64,000 nt of DNA, from assembly GCA_016204045.1 (NCBI GenBank), contig JACQLQ010000001.1, positions 193,579 to 257,578 of the forward strand, given 5' to 3'. Below, one piece after another: positions 2,084 through 24,123 of the stretch. The stretch is from Parcubacteria group bacterium (GTDB lineage: Bacteria > Patescibacteriota > Minisyncoccia > Phycocordibacterales > UBA2135). A model generated the notes under the pieces. That model saw only the letters and a program-made list of their open reading frames with translations. It was not told the origin of the DNA and did not search any database. Both the position numbers and the translations under genes were made by a program. How positions within the stretch are numbered: position 1 is the first letter of the stretch; each line of letters starts with the position of its first letter.

Positions 2084-2482
2084 GGGGGATGATCGGCTTC
2101 GACAAGGGGCGTACTTTGAAACGCGCAGGTAGAGCCGGGGTAACTCTTTAAAAGGCCCCAAACCACAAGTGCAAACAAATTGCGCTCAATCGTTTCTCCT
2201 TACTTTAAGGCGAACGACTTTGCGTTCGTGTACGCTTAAGCGACGAACGTGAACGCTCTCACTTTTGATTTCTGGTAGATGGATGAGAGTGTTATACCAC
2301 CAGGATAGGCAAACGACTCGTTCCGATCGTTTCGCTGAAACCAAGGAGCTCGATGCAGTTCGATTTTGTATCTTTCATACGATCTGCATTTAAATCCGTC
2401 ACATGACGGACTGAAAAATACTAAACCTGTAGATCCGTTTTAAACAACTCTTTGCACGCGGGTTCGATTCCCGCCATCTCCA
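2084..2482 (+). ncRNA. ssrA: tmRNA (ssrA)
   Basis: The 5' end GGGGGAUGAUCGGCUUCGACAAGGG matches the tmRNA consensus GGGGcUGAUUcuGGaUUCGACgGG. The 3' end GCGGGUUCGAUUCCCGCCAUCUCCA is a tRNA-Ala-like T-arm and acceptor. The gene sits next to smpB. Putative tag reading frame GCG AAC GAC TTT GCG TTC GTG TAC GCT TAA at 2210-2239. Confidence 0.85.
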
Positions 2483-2604
2483 TTCGACTCGCCTCTTGAG
2501 GCTCGCTCATGGCAAGCCACCCAAGAAGTCATGCTATTCGCATGGCTTTTTGATTTACGCGAGACGCGAGTCGAATGCCCTGAGCGTTAGTCGAAGGGCT
2601 CGTG

Positions 2605-2610
2605 TATAAT
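2605..2610 (+). promoter_or_regulatory. TATAAT -10 box 6 nt upstream of the GIY-YIG start codon, implying a leaderless or near-leaderless mRNA
   Basis: Sequence gtgTATAATcgaattATG. Confidence 0.35.
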
Positions 2611-2616
2611 CGAATT

Positions 2617-2901
2617 ATGTATTTTGTCTATATGATGAAAAACTCAATAAATAAATTATATGTTGGGATCACTCAAAATCCTGACGCGAGAGCCAGACAT
2701 CATAATGAACAACGCGGAGCAAAATTTACAAAATACAAAACTGATTTTGGTATAGTTTTTCTGGAAAAATACACCACTCTCGCGGAAGCACGAAAACGAG
2801 AAATACAAATCAAAAAGTGGCGACGAGAAAAGAAAGAAAATCTGATTGAGCGATACAGCCAAGGATTGCCGACAAAAATGTCGCAGGTTTCCAAAGAGTG
2901 A
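2617..2901 (+). CDS. GIY-YIG nuclease-superfamily protein (YhbQ/UPF0213-like)
   Basis: The protein begins YFVYMMKN, followed by LYVGIT and a basic KKWRREKKENLI tail. About 94 aa, typical of this family. Confidence 0.75.
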   Translation: MYFVYMMKNSINKLYVGITQNPDARARHHNEQRGAKFTKYKTDFGIVFLEKYTTLAEARKREIQIKKWRREKKENLIERYSQGLPTKMSQVSKE

Positions 2902-3087
2902 GATAGCGAAGCGTCCCGTAATCTCCACTCAACAAAAATGAGCTCGCCACAAGCGGGCCATTTTTGTTGAGTGAAAAATGATGATAAAGAAAGCACCAGA
3001 AGTGTTTGCGAATTGCCGATCGCTATTGATTTTTTTGGAGGAGCTGGTAATCTTCCGATAGATTGATATGGGGTTTCTAGAGAAAAA

Positions 3088-3279
3088 ATGCCACAAAAAA
3101 TAAGCAGGCGTATAAACCTTTGTGATGAAAGAGGTGGTTTTCGGGTAATGGGTGAAGGCGGAATAGCCCTCAAGATCGGTGGTGGTGTGACAGAAGACGA
3201 GCGTAAAGAGATTCATGCGGCAGTGGAAGAGGCTATCAAAAAACTAGGATACGATACTGACTGGATTCCAATATTATAA
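3088..3279 (+). CDS. hypothetical small protein (63 aa)
   Basis: ORF followed by a clean intrinsic terminator. No recognisable domain. Confidence 0.35.
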   Translation: MPQKISRRINLCDERGGFRVMGEGGIALKIGGGVTEDERKEIHAAVEEAIKKLGYDTDWIPIL

Positions 3280-3298
3280 TCAACAAACAACAAACCCA

Positions 3299-3322
3299 AC
3301 TGCACATTCGTGCAGTTTTTTC
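3299..3322 (+). terminator. intrinsic terminator (actgcac-attc-gtgcagt + TTTTTT)
   Basis: 7-bp stem, 4-nt loop, T6 run. Confidence 0.7.
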
Positions 3323-3368
3323 TTTATAAAACACGAAGCACGAGCACATTTTTTGATATACTTGTAAC

Positions 3369-3890
3369 ATGTCAGTTGGTCTTAAACGTGGCACAGTCAA
3401 AGTCATTCCCTATCAGAAGAAATGGGCTAAGGAATTTGAGAAAGAAAAAGCTCGCATTTTGAAGGTATGCGGAGACAAAATCATTGCCATTGAACACATA
3501 GGAAGTACATCAGTGCCAGGATTGGCTGCAAAACCGATCATTGATATTGCGGTCGGGGTAGCAAAGCTTAAGGATGCCGAAAAGTTACTACAACCACTTA
3601 AAAAGATTGGCTACAATTTTTATAAAAAGTTTCAACGCCAGAGATTGTTTATTGCGAAAGGTCCAGATGAGAGACGTACCCACTATCTCCATGTGATGCG
3701 CTACAACGGTTCTAAATGGAAAACAGATCAGCTCTTTCGTAATTACTTGCGCACGCATTCCGCAGAAGTTAAACGATACGCCGATCTTAAAAAAAGTCTT
3801 GCCAAAGAATATGCAGACGATAGAAAGAGCTACTCTGACCACAAAAATAAGTTTATACAATCGATTATTACTAAAGCCCAAAAATATTGA
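3369..3890 (+). CDS. GrpB/UPF0157 family nucleotidyltransferase-like protein
   Basis: HIGSTSVPGLAAKPIIDI motif characteristic of GrpB. Confidence 0.8.
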   Translation: MSVGLKRGTVKVIPYQKKWAKEFEKEKARILKVCGDKIIAIEHIGSTSVPGLAAKPIIDIAVGVAKLKDAEKLLQPLKKIGYNFYKKFQRQRLFIAKGPDERRTHYLHVMRYNGSKWKTDQLFRNYLRTHSAEVKRYADLKKSLAKEYADDRKSYSDHKNKFIQSIITKAQKY

Positions 3891-3945
3891 AGTTTTTTAA
3901 GTCTCCGAATACGCTATACTGTGCTTAGTCGACGAGTACACTAGT

Positions 3946-4296
3946 ATGCCCCACGACATACCGCCGCCAGAAAAGCGTCCTGAACCAGGATACTATTACC
4001 ATTACAAACACGATCCGAACGGACCTGTAAACAATTACGCATATTATATTTACGGGGTTGGTCATCATACTGAAGATAATTGTCGCCCCGAAGACGCATT
4101 CATGCAGGTGTATAGGCCGCTCTACGAAGCATATGTATACAAGAATGGTCGCATGTTTGATCTTCGCCCCCTGCATATGTTCTATGAACTAGCCGAACGG
4201 CATGGGCAAAAAGTGGAGCGCTTCACCAAGATTACTGATCCAGAGGTGATCGCTCTGCTTCGTGAGATTAAAGAGCGGATGTATTCTGACGAATAG
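3946..4296 (+). CDS. DUF1653-like protein
   Basis: GYYYHYKHDPNGPVNNYAYYIYGVGHHTE followed by RPLHMF pattern, resembling DUF1653. Confidence 0.55.
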   Translation: MPHDIPPPEKRPEPGYYYHYKHDPNGPVNNYAYYIYGVGHHTEDNCRPEDAFMQVYRPLYEAYVYKNGRMFDLRPLHMFYELAERHGQKVERFTKITDPEVIALLREIKERMYSDE

Positions 4297-4445
4297 GATA
4301 AATGAATAAGCACGACCTCGAGAGTCCCACCGCACGGACTCTTTTTGTTGATTATTGACACACACGCACTATGCGTGTTACTCTCTTGCAGGCTATCGGG
4401 TAGTACGAGTAGTAAAACCCCACAACAAGGATTCGGAGGAAAACG

Positions 4446-4688
4446 GTGGAAGCGATCGGGACGTATTGGTGGGTTTGGCTCTTGGGATGGGCTCTCTGTC
4501 TCGCGTACCTTGTCTTCAATCAACTTCGGCGCATGAATGGAATGCTTGGTGGCATCTGGAGGGCAGACGCACGTGGTGCCGTCAGGAGTTTCCAGCAAGG
4601 TCTCTTCGGCATGGTCATTGCTGGCGGTGCGGGAACGCTCTGCATTGTCCTTTTCATCGTCGCTGTTCTCATTAACATCGTCAGCTAA
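4446..4688 (+). CDS. small two-TM membrane protein (80 aa; GTG start likely)
   Basis: Two hydrophobic helices (WWVWLLGWALCLAYLVF and LFGMVIAGGAGTLCIVLFIVAVLINIV). Sits immediately upstream of, and same-strand as, ORF 4707. Confidence 0.45.
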   Translation: MEAIGTYWWVWLLGWALCLAYLVFNQLRRMNGMLGGIWRADARGAVRSFQQGLFGMVIAGGAGTLCIVLFIVAVLINIVS

Positions 4689-4706
4689 TAGAGAGGAGCA
4701 ACAGCA

Positions 4707-5555
4707 ATGTGCATCTCGATGGCTAAGGCAGATTTCAGAGGTACGAAGATTTGCATCAATGCGACGAGAATGCCCAATGAGGGCATCGTGCACGTGCTCA
4801 TGTACCAGAACGAAGTTGCGAACTTGGGTGTCGGACCCAATGCCATGTTGCTTCACATTCCTGCCGAGGGTATCGGCCAGAGGAATTTCATTGACACGCG
4901 CAAATTCAGCAGCATCATGGACGACATGGTTACTGCAGTAACGCCACGGTCTCGTGATAGCGGCGCGAAGAGCATGGGCTTTTCGAGGGTGGGTGGAAGC
5001 CGTGTGCAAGTGTTTGATGTCGGTATCTACACCATCATCCTTGCTGAAAAGGCCTCCGACATTCCTGCAGCGCTCAACCGTGTGCCGCAAGGGAAGCGCC
5101 CGAAAGTGAACAGGGAGCTCTTTGCGTTCTACGAACAGGCCTTCCCGGGGTATGCCGTCGCCTTGTGTTGTTTCAACAATCAAAGGTCGGTTAAGGCAGA
5201 GCCCATCATGGTGTGGTACAAGCCCCTGAAGAACACGGACGGCATGTACCGATTCCCGGCAATCGACTGCCACACGGGTGGAGTGCCCGATCTTACCGCC
5301 GATGTCGAGGTTGACCACTGGCTCTTCCTTGCCGCGGACGGGATGCGCGGCGGTAGCCACGTCACCTACAGTGAGGCGGCGGCGATTAAGCCTGAGGTTC
5401 ACCAGCTTCTCCCGAAGCGCGTCTACGGCGCGTACTTCCGTGGACCGAGGCGGAACGGCGACTTCGGCGTTAGGCAGCCCGAAGATTTGAGCTCCTTTGG
5501 TTCGAACGACGCGGTACTGCGTCTTCCGCCTCCCGGGTTCAGGGTAGCGGCGTAA
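4707..5555 (+). CDS. hypothetical protein (282 aa) beginning MC-. Possible N-terminal-nucleophile (Cys2) hydrolase, which is speculative
   Basis: GAGAGGAG Shine-Dalgarno 8 nt before the ATG. Better protein-like composition than the overlapping minus-strand ORF. GC-rich cassette ending at a terminator. Confidence 0.5.
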   Translation: MCISMAKADFRGTKICINATRMPNEGIVHVLMYQNEVANLGVGPNAMLLHIPAEGIGQRNFIDTRKFSSIMDDMVTAVTPRSRDSGAKSMGFSRVGGSRVQVFDVGIYTIILAEKASDIPAALNRVPQGKRPKVNRELFAFYEQAFPGYAVALCCFNNQRSVKAEPIMVWYKPLKNTDGMYRFPAIDCHTGGVPDLTADVEVDHWLFLAADGMRGGSHVTYSEAAAIKPEVHQLLPKRVYGAYFRGPRRNGDFGVRQPEDLSSFGSNDAVLRLPPPGFRVAA

Positions 5556-5570
5556 GTTCTTTAATCGTTG

Positions 5571-5600
5571 ACCGCAGGGTTATTACCCCGCGGTTTTTTA
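5571..5600 (+). terminator. intrinsic terminator (accgcaggg...ccccgcggt + TTTTTT)
   Basis: Stem 8 of 9 bp, then a T6 run. Confidence 0.6.
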
Positions 5601-5714
5601 ATTACACCGATACGGCAATGTGCGGCGCCGACATTGACTCATCTCAAACCACGTGATACAACGTTGCAAGATATATAGTATCAACTCGGGACAAGGGCGG
5701 CCTGATGGGGAACA

Positions 5715-6050
5715 ATGATGACGCTTGGTGAGAGATGGATGGAGAAACTGCGCTCGAGAAGCGCAGAAGCGGTGCTCTGGCTTGACCGCGAACGAAAGCG
5801 TGCCGACCAAATCATTGTGAATATCCAACGAACCATCGAGATTGCGGGGGACAACAGCAAACATCTTGCTGTTGCGATGGTCTTACAATACGGAGAAGAT
5901 TATTACACAGAAGATGCGACCATGGAGAGTTTGCGCGGAGCCGCAAGATTGGTATGCAACTACTGTGTAGAAGAAGGTCTACACCCGCGCGTTGTTCGCG
6001 TGAATGGTCAGACCAATCTCGTCGTTTCGCCAAAGGAACTCGAAATCTAA
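5715..6050 (+). CDS. hypothetical protein (111 aa)
   Basis: ORF followed by a terminator. No recognisable domain. Confidence 0.45.
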   Translation: MMTLGERWMEKLRSRSAEAVLWLDRERKRADQIIVNIQRTIEIAGDNSKHLAVAMVLQYGEDYYTEDATMESLRGAARLVCNYCVEEGLHPRVVRVNGQTNLVVSPKELEI

Positions 6051-17432: not shown

Positions 17433-19955
17433 ATGTCTCTTGCTCTATCTAAAAAAGTCTTAGCCCTCCTAATTCTTTCTGTTGGGCTATTTGCAAGTTT
17501 CGGAATGATTGCCTTTGCTGCGGCGCAGGACTCCTCAATCTCCCTCAAGAAAGATGAAAGCAGCGGTTTCTACACTCTTACCTTGAGAGACCCCGACGGT
17601 ATCCAGGAATTTTCGATGAATCCCGCGAAGGGGTCATCGTACGGAGGTGGGCTTGGCGGCTGCCCAAGATCTTTTAGCAGCAACAACATCGCGGTATTTA
17701 ATGATCTCTCATTTGATCCTGCGATGCCAGCGTACATTATTGACTGTGCCAACAATACCACCAAGCTTGAAATTGGAGCCCCAAAGAACGGCATCGCATC
17801 AAGTAAAATTGTAAAAGAGGAGCCCAAAGAAGATGTCGTCTCTTCTAAAGCGGTAGAACAAAAAGAGGACAAGAAGAGCAATGAGGGTTCGTTAGGAAAC
17901 GTAACATTCCCAGTCAGAGAGTTAGGTAACTGCAAAAACGAAGGAGACTGTCGGACGTATTGCGATAATGCAGACCACGCACGTGAGTGTCTCGCCTTTG
18001 CGAAAAAGCACCAACTTATTTCCGAAGATGAGGAGAAAGACGCCAAGGAAAAGTTTTTGAATGTTCAAAACGGCCCCGGCGGTTGCAACTCGTGGTCTTC
18101 ATGTGAGGCGTATTGTAGCAGTATAGACCGCTTGGACGAATGCATCGCCTTTGCGGAAAAAATGGGGCATGCAGACGAAAAGATACAAGAGGCAAAGAAA
18201 ATTCAGGCATTAGTCAAAAGTGGTAAGCAGTTCCCTGGAGGCTGTAAAGACAGAAACTCCTGCGAGCTTTACTGCGCTGATGTCAACCACATGGACGAGT
18301 GTATCGCTTTTGCGGAAGACGCGGGCTTTATGCCGGAAGAAGAGTTGAGGCAGGCAAAAAAGATATTGCCACTTATGAAGCGTGGGGAAACACCAGGAGG
18401 GTGTACATCAAAGGAGCAATGTGAGAAGTATTGTGAAGCAGAAGGCCATCTTGATGAATGTATAGCCTTTGCAGAAAAAGCAGATCTTCTCTCTGCTGAT
18501 GAAAAAGAAATGATTCGAAAAACCGGCGGCAAAGGGCCAGGGGGCTGTAAGGGCAAAAAGCAGTGTGAGGCATATTGCGAAGCCAACGGTGAGGAATGTT
18601 TTAAGTGGGCACAGGCGAACGGCGTTATGAAAGAAGAGGATTTGGCACGGATGCGAGAGGGGACAGACCGTTTCAGAAAGGAACTTGAGCGAATGCCTCC
18701 CGAGGTTGTCTCGTGTCTGAAGGAAAACATGGGTGAAGAGAACTTCAGCAAAATGTCGAGTGGTGAACCGGTGTTTGACCGCTCACTCGAAGGCAAGATG
18801 AAGGGATGCTTCAGCCAGTTAACTAAGCAAGTGGGTCAACAGCTCAATTCACTTCCACCAGAAGCAGCCGAATGTATCAAAGAAACAGTGGGCGAAGACG
18901 GATTGCGGAAACTTCAGGGTGGTGAGTTTGACCCAACCAAAACTGACTTCAGTGAATTAGAGGGTTGCTTCCAGAAATTACAGGAATCATTTGGCGGACC
19001 CGGAGGATTCGGCGGCCCAGGCGGATGCAAGACACGTGAAGAGTGTGAGGCGTATTGTGAGGAGCATGGTGAAGAATGCCAAGGGTTCGGCCCCCCAGGC
19101 GGTGGTCCCGGAGGTGATTTCCGCGGCGGTGGCCCGGGTGGTTTTTCAGGCCCTGGTGGTTGTACCTCGATAGAGGAGTGTACAAGCTATTGCCAGTCAA
19201 ATCTAGAAGAATGTGAAAAGTTTATGCCGCCTTCGGGAGCTCCCGGAGGGGAGAGGCGCGGCGAAGAGCACCGAGAGTTTCCTGGTGGCGGGGCGACTGA
19301 AGAGCAATTCCCTGGTAGAGGGAGAACTGGCGGTGAGTTCCCCGGTGGGCCAGGAGGATGCAAGACAAAGGAAGAATGTCAACGCGTTTGTGAAGAACAC
19401 CCCGAAGAGTGTCGAGGCTTTAGTGGCGGAGTAGGTGGAGAGGGGAGATTAGACAGCATTCCGCCGCAAGGTAATTCACAAAAGCCGTTTGAACAACCCG
19501 GAAGCGATGAATATCGCAAGCAATACGAAGAGCAGTACAAGGCACAATATCAAAAACAATACGAAGGGCAGTTTGAAGGACGACCGCGAGAGCTCCCAAT
19601 GGAACCTCCGCACAGGGAAGGAGTTGAGATCCAGCAAGAGCAATATCAGAGACAATATGAGGAGCAATACAAAGCGGAGTATCAGAAACAGTTTGAGCAA
19701 CAGCAACAGTATCAATATCAACAAAACACACTGCCGTCACCAGAACCAACCCATCAGGATGTACCAGTGTATCAACAGTACCAACAACCTCCGCAGTCAT
19801 CTGAAACTCAGCAATATTACAAAACAGATGAAGTGAATTTTGTGCCGCCTCCCGCTTCAACCCAAGGGGGAGCAGTGCGGCTCTACCGGGCTCCCAGAGG
19901 GTCACTCTACGAAAATACCAATCAACTCCTCAAGGGTTTTTCTCCTAGTCAATAA
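17433..19955 (+). CDS. secreted cysteine-rich repeat protein (840 aa) of unknown family
   Basis: Signal peptide MSLALSKKVLALLILSVGLFASFGMIAFAAAQ. At least 8 modules matching GGC-x5-C-x2-YC-x5-9-EC. Gly/Pro-rich linkers. C-terminal Q/Y/E-rich low-complexity tail. Confidence 0.8.
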   Translation: MSLALSKKVLALLILSVGLFASFGMIAFAAAQDSSISLKKDESSGFYTLTLRDPDGIQEFSMNPAKGSSYGGGLGGCPRSFSSNNIAVFNDLSFDPAMPAYIIDCANNTTKLEIGAPKNGIASSKIVKEEPKEDVVSSKAVEQKEDKKSNEGSLGNVTFPVRELGNCKNEGDCRTYCDNADHARECLAFAKKHQLISEDEEKDAKEKFLNVQNGPGGCNSWSSCEAYCSSIDRLDECIAFAEKMGHADEKIQEAKKIQALVKSGKQFPGGCKDRNSCELYCADVNHMDECIAFAEDAGFMPEEELRQAKKILPLMKRGETPGGCTSKEQCEKYCEAEGHLDECIAFAEKADLLSADEKEMIRKTGGKGPGGCKGKKQCEAYCEANGEECFKWAQANGVMKEEDLARMREGTDRFRKELERMPPEVVSCLKENMGEENFSKMSSGEPVFDRSLEGKMKGCFSQLTKQVGQQLNSLPPEAAECIKETVGEDGLRKLQGGEFDPTKTDFSELEGCFQKLQESFGGPGGFGGPGGCKTREECEAYCEEHGEECQGFGPPGGGPGGDFRGGGPGGFSGPGGCTSIEECTSYCQSNLEECEKFMPPSGAPGGERRGEEHREFPGGGATEEQFPGRGRTGGEFPGGPGGCKTKEECQRVCEEHPEECRGFSGGVGGEGRLDSIPPQGNSQKPFEQPGSDEYRKQYEEQYKAQYQKQYEGQFEGRPRELPMEPPHREGVEIQQEQYQRQYEEQYKAEYQKQFEQQQQYQYQQNTLPSPEPTHQDVPVYQQYQQPPQSSETQQYYKTDEVNFVPPPASTQGGAVRLYRAPRGSLYENTNQLLKGFSPSQ
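17928..19420 (+). repeat. array of at least 8 degenerate coding repeats, each about 135-150 nt, the 4-Cys module of the gene above
   Basis: Recurring CxxYC...DEC-IAFAE / EEC peptide pattern at 17940, 18085, 18245, 18405, 18545, 19025, 19165 and 19355. Confidence 0.7.
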
Positions 19956-23055: not shown

Positions 23056-24123
23056 TCAGGTTGTACGAGGCTCCAAGAACCCTTTTTGTATTTGCTCGGG
23101 CGTTGGTTCATGCAAATCCCAAATAATCCCGATTCGCTCGAGCCACTTGATGATTGGGTACGCCCAGTCTTCTTCTCCGTCAAAGAGCGCAAACCGGACG
23201 CTTTTTTCATGACGGTGATGATTGTTGTGGTTCTGCTCTCCGGCGGTTGCGCGTAGAGCGGGGGTGTTTTTGCTCGTGTCCTCCGGTGTGATCTTGTAGT
23301 TCACAGTACCAAAGACGTGCGCAAATGAATTGATCGCGTATGTCCAGTGCCAGACAAGAAAGGTCGAGAAGAAGAATCCGACAATGAGCGTCGAAATGCC
23401 ACCCACCCATCCGCCCCAAGCGAAACCGAGAAGGAAAACAAGTATGCCGAGAATGGACGGTGGCACAACATACCACCGATCGAGCCAGACAATTTCTGGG
23501 AACTGCCCAAAATCTCTGAGTACTCGAGTGCTTCGATAGTCCGCGTATTTGGGAGACATTATCCAGCCAACATGGCTCCACCAGAACCCCTTCTTTGGAG
23601 TGTGGGGGTCTTTTGGTGTGTCTGACCATGTGTGGTGGTCACGATGATTGCTTGCCCACTGGAGGACACCTTTTTGCAACGCCATTTCTGTAACAAACGC
23701 GAGTACGCACTGGCTCAATCGCCCCGTCCTGAACCCTGTGTGACTGAAGTAGATGTGGTGCCCCGTGTGGACGAAAAAGAGTCTCACAAAAAAGAGCACA
23801 AAGCAGATATCCATACTCAGGAGCACGAGGAAGTCTGAGGGGGACGGGAGGGAGAGGAGGATTGCAGCGTGTGTCACAAGAAGTATGCCCGCCGTCGTTT
23901 CCCACGTTTTCTTTTTGCATGCGAGCGTATAGAGGAGCAGAGCAAAGACCGCGGACACAAGGATCGCATGCCAAAAGGGGAGGAAAGAGAGAAGCAGGAA
24001 AGGTCCCGCTACAGCGATTGCGTTAAAGACAAAGTACAGAGTTGAGCCCCGCCAGTCGATTATTTCGTCGGGTGCTCGAGGGATTTCAGGCGGCTTGAAG
24101 AGTAGGCGAATCAACGCAAACAT
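23056..24123 (-). CDS. membrane acyl-lipid/acyl-CoA desaturase (delta-9-type fatty acid desaturase family)
   Basis: Histidine boxes HRDHH, HTWSDTPKDPHTP and HNNHHRHE, with 4 TM helices. Confidence 0.8.
   Translation of the reverse strand: MFALIRLLFKPPEIPRAPDEIIDWRGSTLYFVFNAIAVAGPFLLLSFLPFWHAILVSAVFALLLYTLACKKKTWETTAGILLVTHAAILLSLPSPSDFLVLLSMDICFVLFFVRLFFVHTGHHIYFSHTGFRTGRLSQCVLAFVTEMALQKGVLQWASNHRDHHTWSDTPKDPHTPKKGFWWSHVGWIMSPKYADYRSTRVLRDFGQFPEIVWLDRWYVVPPSILGILVFLLGFAWGGWVGGISTLIVGFFFSTFLVWHWTYAINSFAHVFGTVNYKITPEDTSKNTPALRATAGEQNHNNHHRHEKSVRFALFDGEEDWAYPIIKWLERIGIIWDLHEPTPEQIQKGFLEPRTT

What the first reader, a model, noticed from the sequence alone, without database searches (positions are those of the whole stretch)
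4340..5600. GC-rich two-gene cassette (2-TM peptide plus a 282-aa MC- protein) of unknown function
Between the DUF1653 gene and a hypothetical gene lies a roughly 1.2 kb stretch that is visibly more GC-rich than the flanks. It encodes an 80-aa two-helix membrane protein (4446-4688, probable GTG start). After a GAGAGGAG Shine-Dalgarno it encodes a 282-aa protein beginning Met-Cys-Ile-Ser, and the cassette is closed by an intrinsic terminator at 5571-5600. The six-frame track shows a longer antisense ORF, but its product is low-complexity. The 282-aa protein has no motif I recognise. The Cys2 start is reminiscent of N-terminal-nucleophile hydrolases, but that is a guess. A small membrane protein followed by a cytosolic enzyme-like protein in a compositionally foreign segment is a common shape for toxin/immunity or defence cassettes.
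Basis: partly seen in the sequence, partly recalled or inferred. Interest (0 to 1): 0.6.

Follow-up and report, generated by a model that had tools for sequence, protein, structure and literature searches.

The report
Bacterial relative of baculovirus P35
The 282-aa "Met-Cys" protein belongs to a large, unannotated bacterial family whose predicted fold, invariant N-terminal cysteine and floppy loop match baculovirus P35, the viral suicide inhibitor of caspases, so it is probably a protease trap; the small membrane gene beside it is only a local companion.

Summary
Window 4355-5601 is a self-contained two-gene unit on the + strand. It has a promoter-like site, an 80-aa two-helix membrane ORF (4446-4688), a Shine-Dalgarno site, a 282-aa ORF (4707-5555) and a terminator. 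Its GC content is in the 99th percentile of the window.

The 282-aa protein matches nothing in Pfam, NCBIfam, PADLOC, PHROGs or PDB sequences. It nevertheless has 656 cluster representatives and occurs in at least 198 species. These are mainly filamentous actinomycetes, plus candidate-phyla bacteria, Ktedonobacteria and one 393-kb viral contig.

Best reading (about 0.4): a P35-type bait-and-trap inhibitor of an Arg-specific protease. Main rival (about 0.3): an enzyme that uses the N-terminal Cys on this scaffold. The fold is not that of an Ntn hydrolase, and nothing supports a toxin/immunity cassette. The membrane gene recurs in only one related genome.

The parts
4320..4343 (+). Terminator-like hairpin of the upstream DUF1653 gene. 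It marks the 5' boundary of the unit.
   Evidence: A hairpin sits at the same place in L005.
4355..4384 (+). Inferred promoter: -35 TTGACA (4355-4360), 18-nt spacer, extended -10 TGtTACTCT (4376-4384). A conserved leader (GGCTAYCGGGTAGTA) follows.
   Evidence: Read from the sequence. The region is 78% identical to L005 although synonymous sites of the ORFs are saturated. The consensus scan did not report it because the -10 is weak. This is an inference.
4446..4688 (+). 80-aa small membrane protein with two predicted transmembrane helices and a basic connecting loop. It has a GTG start with GGAGG upstream. It is a lineage-specific companion gene.
   Evidence: The only homologue is the ORF directly upstream of the family gene in L005 (56% identity, dN/dS 0.25). 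The protein database holds only the protein itself.
4694..4701 (+). Shine-Dalgarno GAGAGGAG, 5 nt before the ATG at 4707.
4707..5555 (+). 282-aa protein with a predicted P35/P49-like fold. It belongs to an unannotated prokaryotic family.
4710..4712 (+). Codon for Cys2, which becomes the mature N-terminal residue once the Met is removed.
   Evidence: C2 is 99% conserved. 189 of 231 sequences start MC. About 13 secreted homologues carry a signal peptide ending AxA or SxS immediately before this Cys.
4941..5003 (+). Residues 79-99, a disordered hypervariable loop after helix 70-78. It is the candidate bait or reactive-site loop (TPRSRDSGAKSMGFSRVGGSR).
   Evidence: pLDDT is below 50 at residues 82-97. 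Entropy exceeds 3 bits and length ranges 10-148 aa. R-[GSA] occurs in 193 of 229 loops against 131 +/- 7 in shuffles. The loop is collinear with the P35 loop around D87 in hhalign, at low confidence.
5570..5601 (+). Intrinsic terminator: a 26-nt hairpin followed by T6.
   Evidence: dG -16.2, z -3.5.

Best explanation
The 282-aa gene encodes a prokaryotic member of the structural superfamily of baculovirus P35/P49 caspase inhibitors. I propose that it works the way P35 does.

1. The initiator Met is removed, or in secreted relatives the signal peptide is cleaved. Either event leaves Cys as the free N-terminal residue, tucked into the beta core.
2. The exposed, flexible loop (residues about 79-99) is offered as a pseudo-substrate. 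Its recurrent Pro-x-Ser/Thr-Arg-Gly/Ser motif suggests a protease that cuts after Arg.
3. After cleavage, the acyl-enzyme intermediate is not resolved by water. The N-terminal Cys is released by the cleavage-induced rearrangement, and its 1,2-aminothiol shields or captures the intermediate. The protease is then stoichiometrically trapped.

What is shown:
- the gene is real and conserved;
- the predicted fold matches P35/P49;
- the N-terminal Cys is conserved;
- the loop is at the equivalent position and carries an enriched Arg-small motif.

What is inferred:
- that the loop is cleaved;
- that Cys2 traps an acyl-enzyme;
- the identity of the target. Candidates are orthocaspase/metacaspase-like or other clan CD Arg-specific cysteine proteases, or a trypsin-like protease.

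The 80-aa membrane protein is co-transcribed here. It is a lineage-specific add-on and not part of the family's mechanism.
For: Model quality: pLDDT 89.7, pTM 0.87, and the only disordered stretch is residues 82-97.

Structural matches:
- Foldseek against PDB: the top 7 hits are all P35 chains, E = 3.8e-6 to 5e-4, probability 1.00. The next hit has E = 1.5e-2.
- Foldseek against viral models: the only hits below 1e-3 are entomopoxvirus P35, two P49s, a P35/P49-like granulovirus protein, one further entomopoxvirus protein and two giant-virus proteins (TM 0.60-0.61). The next hit has E = 0.17.
- The query model is not a memorised P35, because AlphaFold2 models P35 itself poorly from a shallow alignment (pLDDT 40).

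P35 mechanism: the reactive loop DQMD87 forms a thioester with the caspase Cys, and Cys2 is essential for trapping it (PMC7863939 section 3.3). M1-C2-V3 is invariant in P35.

Family features:
- C2 is 99% conserved, and the consensus N-terminus is MCVS.
- Homology starts at residue 1 in all 80 genomic loci.
- The secreted subfamily has AxA|C cleavage sites, so a free N-terminal Cys is maintained in both compartments.
- hhalign places MC on MC and the P35 scissile site inside the query's disordered loop. It also aligns YxN, F103/F96, Y108/Y101, Y142/Y133, YVAxC and YxP collinearly.

Loop features:
- It is hypervariable, yet R-[GSA] is enriched with z of about 9. The logo is P-x-[ST]-R-[GS].
- Its omega is 0.49 against 0.22 for the rest of the protein, so it is relaxed but still constrained.

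Distribution and context:
- There are periplasmic versions with TonB_C anchors and a copy on a 393-kb viral contig. Both fit a protease-inhibitor role.
- The family is concentrated in filamentous actinomycetes and Ktedonobacteria. Apoptosis-like conflict systems are enriched in such multicellular bacteria (PMC7159879).
- No metabolic operon context was found.
Against: - Sequence-level similarity to P35 is not significant: hhalign E = 0.34 and 0.18, and none of 54 members hits PF02331.
- About 20 polar residues outside the loop are invariant or nearly so: Y33, N35, N45, H50, R131, C155, D187, H189, D203, H204, N250, D252. Those that fall in the aligned region are not shared with P35. This pattern looks more like an active or metal site than an inhibitor surface.
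- No protease gene is linked to the family in any neighbourhood examined.
- 25 of 229 loops lack [RK][GSA]. One member has a multi-helix membrane insertion of about 150 aa inside the loop.
- The loop shows no positive selection.
- I could not inspect model coordinates, so the spatial relation of Cys2, the loop and the conserved cluster is untested.
Confidence: 0.4

Rival explanations
1. It is an enzyme, either a hydrolase, transferase or ligase, built on a P35-like scaffold. It would use the free N-terminal Cys as nucleophile or base, together with the invariant polar cluster (C155, H189, D187, D203, H204, N250, D252, R131). The variable loop would be only a permissive linker.
For: - There are many invariant Cys, His, Asp, Asn, Tyr and Arg residues outside the loop.
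- The dual pattern of a cytoplasmic MC- start and a secreted signal peptide|C is, from my own knowledge, also seen in N-terminal-nucleophile enzymes such as the choloylglycine hydrolase/penicillin V acylase family.
- The loop tolerates 10-148 aa, including membrane helices.
- The loop shows no arms-race signature.
- There is one fusion to an HD_4 domain and one neighbouring HD_4 gene.
Against: - The fold is not the Ntn alpha-beta-beta-alpha sandwich, and no enzyme appears among the specific structural matches.
- No family, motif or solved-structure match to any enzyme was found.
- There is no conserved metabolic or operon context.
- The Arg-small motif in the loop is enriched, which a pure linker would not predict.
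Confidence: 0.3
2. It is a toxin/immunity or anti-phage defence cassette. The small membrane protein and the 282-aa protein would act as a functional pair.
For: - The two genes are co-transcribed and the arrangement is conserved in L005.
- The unit lies in a variable region downstream of tmRNA.
- Close relatives sit next to Gp49/HTH and phage-like genes.
Against: - Neither protein hits PADLOC.
- The membrane gene is absent beside every other family member examined.
- The 282-aa gene is a stand-alone gene in about 80 genomes.
Confidence: 0.07
3. It is a non-catalytic, non-inhibitory protein. Cys2, C154/C155 and the His/Asp residues would bind a metal or sense redox state. The resemblance to P35 would then be fold-level only.
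For: - The conserved residues are rich in Cys, His and Asp.
- MsrA lies directly upstream in several Streptomyces loci.
Against: - The MsrA adjacency is confined to one synteny group of related Streptomyces.
- This reading does not explain why the alpha-amine must be free, as implied by a signal-peptidase-type site placed exactly before the Cys.
- It does not explain the loop motif either.
Confidence: 0.12

Closest known systems
Baculovirus P35 (AcMNPV; PDB 1P35, 1I4E, 2FUN; Pfam PF02331; MEROPS I50A)
   Same: - It is the best and specific structural match.
- The N-terminus is Met-Cys-Val/Ile, with the Cys invariant.
- A helix is followed by a long exposed loop at residues of about 80-100.
- The proteins are of similar length, 282 against 299 aa.
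- The order of secondary-structure elements is collinear over the first 185 residues or so (the P35 side is low-confidence).
   Different: - There is no significant sequence or profile similarity.
- The loop has no conserved Asp P1. An Arg-Gly/Ser motif is enriched instead.
- The bacterial family has many extra invariant polar residues.
- It is cellular and mostly chromosomal, with cytoplasmic and secreted forms, rather than an insect-virus gene.
P49 and entomopoxvirus P35/P33-type apoptosis suppressors (MEROPS I50B and relatives)
   Same: Foldseek retrieves them specifically, at E = 4.6e-7 to 1.3e-4 and probability 1.00.
   Different: TM-scores are 0.37-0.43 and identity is 12-15%. I could not examine their N-termini or loops with the tools available.
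Uncharacterised giant-virus proteins (Tupanvirus soda lake A0A6N1NI77; Clandestinovirus A0A8F8PN05, the latter annotated as a UBR-type zinc-finger protein)
   Same: They are the closest structural matches overall, at E = 9.6e-13 and 3.3e-11 with TM 0.60-0.61.
   Different: Their function is unknown.
N-terminal-nucleophile hydrolases with Cys1 (choloylglycine hydrolase/penicillin V acylase, class II amidotransferases)
   Same: The mature N-terminal Cys is exposed by Met removal or by signal-peptide cleavage (for this family; my own knowledge for the Ntn hydrolases).
Bait-and-trap protease inhibitors of bacteria (periplasmic alpha-2-macroglobulins, serpins, ecotin)
   Same: The functional logic proposed here is the same: an exposed bait loop plus covalent or tight trapping. 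Periplasmic, anchored versions exist in this family too (TonB_C fusions).
   Different: The folds and the chemistry are unrelated. This is an analogy from my own knowledge and was not tested.

Membership tests
P35/P49 caspase-inhibitor family (Pfam PF02331, MEROPS I50) | Significant match to the family's sequence profile | tested here: not met
   The query and 54 family members give no PF02331 hit even at E <= 10. hhalign of the family against P35 gives E = 0.34, and against a 7-sequence P35 alignment E = 0.18.
P35/P49 caspase-inhibitor family (Pfam PF02331, MEROPS I50) | P35 fold | tested here: met
P35/P49 caspase-inhibitor family (Pfam PF02331, MEROPS I50) | Mature N-terminal Cys (Cys2) needed to trap the thioester | tested here: met
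   C2 is 99% conserved in 231 sequences. Signal-peptidase-type sites fall exactly before the Cys in secreted members. The role of Cys2 in P35 is taken from PMC7863939.
P35/P49 caspase-inhibitor family (Pfam PF02331, MEROPS I50) | Solvent-exposed reactive-site loop after an amphipathic helix | tested here: inconclusive
   Helix 70-78 is followed by a loop with pLDDT below 50 at residues 82-97. The loop is hypervariable and collinear with P35 residues 79-95 in a low-confidence hhalign alignment. I could not superpose coordinates.
P35/P49 caspase-inhibitor family (Pfam PF02331, MEROPS I50) | Caspase recognition site with Asp at P1 in the loop | tested here: not met
   D-[GSA] is not enriched (55 observed, 57 expected), whereas R-[GSA] is (193 observed, 131 +/- 7 expected).
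P35/P49 caspase-inhibitor family (Pfam PF02331, MEROPS I50) | Cleavage-dependent, stoichiometric inhibition of a cysteine protease | not testable with these tools
   This needs biochemistry.
Ntn-hydrolase superfamily | Four-layer alpha-beta-beta-alpha sandwich with the nucleophile at the start of a central strand | tested here: not met
Ntn-hydrolase superfamily | N-terminal Cys/Ser/Thr exposed in the mature protein | tested here: met
Known anti-phage defence or toxin-antitoxin systems | Match to a known defence or toxin-antitoxin protein model | tested here: not met
   PADLOC gives no hits for either protein. NCBIfam and PHROGs give none.
Known anti-phage defence or toxin-antitoxin systems | Conserved co-occurrence of the two genes | tested here: not met
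   The 80-aa gene is found only in the window and in L005. It is absent in L001/L006, L093, L094 and the other loci.

The most novel reading that the evidence does not exclude
These proteins would be the missing cellular relatives of baculovirus P35: a widespread prokaryotic family, also carried by a jumbo phage and by giant viruses, of mechanism-based protease traps. They would use an N-terminal cysteine and an Arg-containing bait loop to silence orthocaspase/metacaspase-like or other death or immune proteases. P35-type control of proteolytic cell death would then predate animals and their viruses. A still more speculative variant is that the internal C155/His/Asp cluster cleaves the protein's own loop and Cys2 captures the thioester, giving self-cyclisation.
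Probability: 0.3. Interest if true: 0.9.

Novelty: new variant of a known kind. Interest (0 to 1): 0.72.

Why it matters
To my knowledge, P35 has been treated as an orphan viral invention with a unique fold and an unusual chemistry, in which the N-terminal Cys traps a protease thioester. Seven searches of the held literature found no bacterial P35-like protein.

This family is large. It has 656 representatives at 50% identity and occurs in at least 198 species. It keeps the P35 fold, the N-terminal Cys and a loop at the reactive-loop position.

If the family works like P35, three things would follow:
- it would give P35 an evolutionary origin;
- it would point to regulated Arg-specific proteolysis, possibly caspase-like, in filamentous actinomycetes and candidate-phyla bacteria;
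- it would provide a new scaffold for engineered covalent protease inhibitors.

The proposal is directly testable with a recombinant protein, a C2A mutant and a protease panel.

Tried and rejected
Searches with no result:
- Pfam, NCBIfam, PADLOC and PHROGs scans of both proteins found nothing above noise.
- PDB sequence searches with the single sequence and with the family profile found nothing relevant.
- Profile-profile comparison with P35, as a single sequence and as a 7-sequence alignment, gave collinear but non-significant alignments.
- An attempt to widen the P35 profile from viral contigs found only close P35s. The protein search with P35 returned 7 near-identical sequences.

Structure prediction of P35:
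- AlphaFold2 on P35 itself, meant for a comparison of secondary-structure order, gave a poor model (pLDDT 40). It is used only as a rough guide.

Neighbourhood analysis:
- ORFs in 85 loci were clustered.
- The stricter pass found only lineage-specific synteny: MsrA, thiolase, SDR, an XRE regulator, MFS, deacetylase and alcohol dehydrogenase. An S8 peptidase lies 2-3 kb away on the opposite strand in 5 loci.
- No conserved partner and no protease linkage emerged.

Hypotheses tested and rejected:
- Positive selection in the loop: rejected, median omega 0.49.
- Recent transfer from actinomycetes: not supported. The window's protein sits in a clade with other Parcubacteria and metagenome sequences. 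The GC3 of the Parcubacteria copies is nevertheless well above their genomes.
- The antisense ORF as the real gene: rejected.
- A direct repeat or att site flanking the region downstream of tmRNA: none found apart from terminator tails.
Full report
**1. The observation**

The window between 4320 and 5601 contains a compact unit on the + strand.
- The terminator of the preceding DUF1653 gene lies at 4320-4343.
- A promoter-like site follows: TTGACA at 4355-4360, an 18-nt spacer, then an extended -10, TGtTACTCT, at 4376-4384 (read).
- An 80-aa ORF runs from 4446 to 4688, with a GTG start and GGAGG 7 nt upstream.
- GAGAGGAG lies at 4694-4701.
- A 282-aa ORF runs from 4707 to 5555 and begins MCIS.
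- A hairpin at 5570-5595 is followed by T6. Its dG is -16.2 kcal/mol, z = -3.5 against shuffles.

The stretch 4340-5600 has 55.2% GC against a window mean of 49.4%, which is the 99th percentile of 1200-bp windows. GC3 of the 282-aa gene is 0.71.

The 406-aa antisense ORF (4182-5402) exists. It has no family match and lacks a coding-type GC pattern by codon position.

Against the homologous locus L005, dN/dS is 0.07 for the long gene and 0.25 for the short one. Both + strand ORFs are therefore real genes. The short protein has two hydrophobic helices separated by a basic loop.

**2. Where it sits**

The window comes from a Parcubacteria-group metagenome-assembled genome. The two proteins are deposited as HY455_01170 and HY455_01175, both hypothetical.

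Upstream lie an M13 peptidase, SmpB and the tmRNA gene (2085-2485). Downstream lie an unmatched 111-aa ORF and a Kbl-like aminotransferase/dehydrogenase pair, identified from their translations.

A related Parcubacteria genome, L005, has the same order: M13, SmpB, tmRNA, the small membrane gene, the 282-aa homologue (63% identity), Kbl and the dehydrogenase. It lacks the three low-GC genes that the window carries between tmRNA and the cassette, namely GIY-YIG, GrpB and DUF1653.

The promoter and leader are 78% identical between the two genomes, although synonymous sites of the ORFs are saturated.

The pair is therefore a real, vertically shared transcription unit, and it lies in a variable region next to ssrA.

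**3. The small gene is local, the large gene is a big family**

The 80-aa protein has no relative in the 5.8-billion-protein collection other than itself. The only other copy is the L005 ORF. It is missing beside relatives of 57-61% identity.

The 282-aa protein behaves very differently.
- It has 96 word-indexed homologues.
- It has 656 representatives at E <= 1e-3 in the exhaustive search, of which 238 are below 1e-30.
- It has relatives in at least 198 GTDB species.
- These are mostly Streptomyces, Actinomadura, Actinoallomurus and other filamentous actinomycetes. Others are Ktedonobacteria, several candidate-phyla lineages (Parcubacteria, Levyibacteriota, Saccharibacteria, Uhrbacteria), some Gammaproteobacteria MAGs and one 393-kb viral contig.

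None of these proteins carries a Pfam domain.

Neighbourhoods differ from lineage to lineage and consist of unrelated housekeeping genes. No conserved partner and no linked protease was found.

**4. What the protein looks like**

Conserved residues:
- M1 and C2 are nearly invariant.
- Y33, N35, N45, Y108, R131, C155, D187, H189, P194 and G251 are invariant in the 54-sequence alignment. D252 is 100% conserved in the 231-sequence set.
- H50, D203, H204 and N250 are nearly invariant, at 90% or more.

N-terminus, across 231 sequences:
- C2 is 99% conserved.
- 189 sequences begin MC.
- About 13 carry a typical signal peptide whose -3/-1 residues obey the AxA rule immediately before this Cys.

In both the cytoplasmic and the secreted forms, the mature protein therefore starts with a free cysteine.

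The AlphaFold2 model built from the 54-sequence alignment is confident (pLDDT 89.7, pTM 0.87). Its only disordered segment is residues 82-97, after helix 70-78.

**5. The fold is that of baculovirus P35**

- Foldseek against PDB lists seven P35 chains first (E = 3.8e-6 to 5e-4, probability 1.00). The next hit has E = 1.5e-2.
- Foldseek against predicted viral structures gives seven hits below 1e-3. These are entomopoxvirus P35, two P49s, a granulovirus P35/P49-like protein, another entomopoxvirus protein and two giant-virus proteins. The giant-virus proteins (Tupanvirus, Clandestinovirus) are the closest, with TM about 0.6. The next hit has E = 0.17.
- AlphaFold2 models P35 itself poorly from a shallow alignment (pLDDT 40). 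The query model is therefore not a recalled copy of P35.

At the sequence level the relationship is not significant: hhalign gives E = 0.34 and 0.18, and no member hits PF02331. The alignment is nonetheless collinear from MC to MC. It passes through YxN, a Phe, Y-[TS], Y-E, YVAxC and YxP, and it puts the P35 cleavage site inside the query's disordered loop.

I rate common ancestry, or at least a shared core fold, at about 0.8.

**6. Why this suggests a mechanism**

P35 is a suicide substrate. A caspase cleaves its exposed loop after Asp87 and becomes locked as a thioester. The N-terminal Cys2 repositions and its thiol traps that thioester. The N-terminal fragment is recovered as a circular peptide (PMC7863939, section 3.3).

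The bacterial family keeps the two features this chemistry needs.

*A free N-terminal Cys.* This was described in section 4.

*A flexible loop at the equivalent position.*
- The loop is hypervariable in sequence and length (10-148 aa, median 19) and rich in Gly, Ser, Ala, Arg and Pro.
- It is not random. An Arg followed by Gly, Ser or Ala occurs in 193 of 229 loops, against 131 +/- 7 when each loop is shuffled.
- The preferred context is Pro-x-Ser/Thr-Arg-Gly/Ser. Asp-small pairs are not enriched.
- The loop evolves faster than the rest of the protein but is still constrained, with omega 0.49 against 0.22.

My proposal is a P35-type trap for a protease that cuts after Arg. Orthocaspases and metacaspases, which cleave after basic residues (PMC6426788 abstract), and other clan CD enzymes are natural candidates. 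A trypsin-like target cannot be excluded.

Three further observations fit an inhibitor role:
- periplasmic members are fused to TonB_C domains;
- a copy lies on a jumbo viral contig;
- the family is enriched in multicellular actinomycetes, which are rich in apoptosis-like conflict systems (PMC7159879).

**7. What argues against it**

- The bacterial family has a constellation of invariant polar residues that P35 does not share in the aligned part: N45, H50, R131, C155, D187, H189, D203, H204, N250 and D252. This looks like an active site or a metal site.
- No protease is genomically linked to the family.
- 25 loops lack a basic-small pair. Several of these carry a D-W-M-G motif instead.
- One member has membrane helices inserted in the loop.
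- The loop shows no sign of an arms race.
- I could not examine model coordinates to see whether Cys2 lies next to the loop base or next to the polar cluster.

The main rival is therefore an enzyme that uses the N-terminal Cys on this scaffold (about 0.3). One fusion to an HD_4 domain, and an HD_4 gene next to a Parcubacteria copy, are unexplained hints.

**8. Comparison with known families and verdict**

Membership in Pfam PF02331 / MEROPS I50 fails on the sequence criterion and on the Asp P1 site. It passes on fold and on the N-terminal Cys. The loop criterion is inconclusive. I therefore do not file the protein as a P35 family member. I describe it as a new prokaryotic branch, or variant, of the P35/P49 structural superfamily.

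It is not an Ntn hydrolase, because the fold test fails. It is not a recognisable defence or toxin-antitoxin system, because there are no PADLOC hits and the gene pairing is not conserved.

Seven full-text searches found no description of bacterial P35-like proteins. The two Aravind-group papers on bacterial apoptosis-like systems that one of these searches returned do not mention P35.

The emphasis on Cys2 was right. The Ntn and cassette interpretations are not supported.

Noticed in passing
window 2085-2485 (+); also 1139-1672 and 12-1175: A full-length tmRNA gene (Rfam 123.7 bits) is preceded by SmpB and an M13 peptidase. L005 has the same order. The cassette therefore lies in the variable region just downstream of ssrA, a classic integration hot spot.
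   Followed up: partly
window 2602-4296: Three low-GC genes (0.36-0.47) lie between tmRNA and the cassette: GIY-YIG nuclease at 2602-2901, GrpB at 3369-3890 and DUF1653 at 3946-4296. All three are absent from the syntenic L005, so they look like a separate insertion. No flanking direct repeat was found.
   Followed up: partly
window 2886-2928 = L005 4024-4066: A 43-nt block is 93% identical between the two genomes and lies downstream of tmRNA in both. In the window it overlaps the 3' end of the GIY-YIG ORF. Its nature is unknown.
   Followed up: no
window 4349-4445 vs L005 4644-4740: The promoter and 5' leader of the cassette are far better conserved (78%) than synonymous sites of the ORFs. 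The conserved part includes GGCTAYCGGGTAGTA, which may be a regulatory leader.
   Followed up: partly
P0121, P0133, P0148, P0154, P0165, P0177, P0192, P0193, P0196, P0226, P0229, P0231: A secreted subfamily has a signal peptide ending AxA or SxS directly before CCSL. P0193, P0148 and P0226 have C-terminal TonB_C/TonB_2 domains, and P0196 has a C-terminal multi-helix membrane region.
   Followed up: partly
P0231, loop region: About 150 aa with several hydrophobic helices are inserted exactly in the variable loop of a secreted family member. This is awkward for a universal bait-loop role.
   Followed up: no
P0110 (= L074, Solirubrobacterales) and L001 6910-7623: There is a C-terminal fusion to an HD_4 domain, the (p)ppGpp-hydrolase-type HD. 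In a Parcubacteria relative, an HD_4 gene lies directly downstream and a PP2C phosphatase upstream.
   Followed up: no
L085 6001-6864 (IMGVR_UViG_3300012980_000004, 393 kb): A family member (35% identity, starting MCCTL) sits on a jumbo viral contig next to a GIY-YIG homing endonuclease and a collagen-like tail-fibre-like ORF.
   Followed up: partly
BFVD hits A0A6N1NI77 (Tupanvirus) and A0A8F8PN05 (Clandestinovirus): Giant-virus proteins are structurally closer to the bacterial family (TM about 0.6) than P35 is. One of them is annotated as a UBR-type zinc-finger protein.
   Followed up: no
L012, L013, L014, L045 and 9 other Streptomyces loci: A peptide methionine sulfoxide reductase (MsrA-like, GCFWG motif) lies upstream on the same strand, within 50-100 bp in four loci. 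This may simply be shared synteny.
   Followed up: partly
Actinomycete members, loop region: A second short motif, D-W-M-G, recurs about 8-10 residues after the Arg-Gly/Ser pair. It is the only motif in several loops that lack Arg.
   Followed up: no
window 5715-6050: This 111-aa ORF lies after the terminator. It has only sub-threshold hits, the best being HepT-like at E = 0.009, and no homologue in any fetched locus.
   Followed up: partly
window 17433-19955 and 23056-24123: Two large ORFs (840 aa and 355 aa) have no Pfam match. FtsH, ClpP, CorA, RecG and alanine dehydrogenase lie nearby.
   Followed up: no
WIN, L005, L006 family genes: The Parcubacteria copies have GC3 of 0.66-0.74 in genomes of about 0.50 GC. 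They nevertheless form their own clade, separate from the high-GC actinomycetes. The cause could be ancient transfer or codon bias; it is unexplained.
   Followed up: partly
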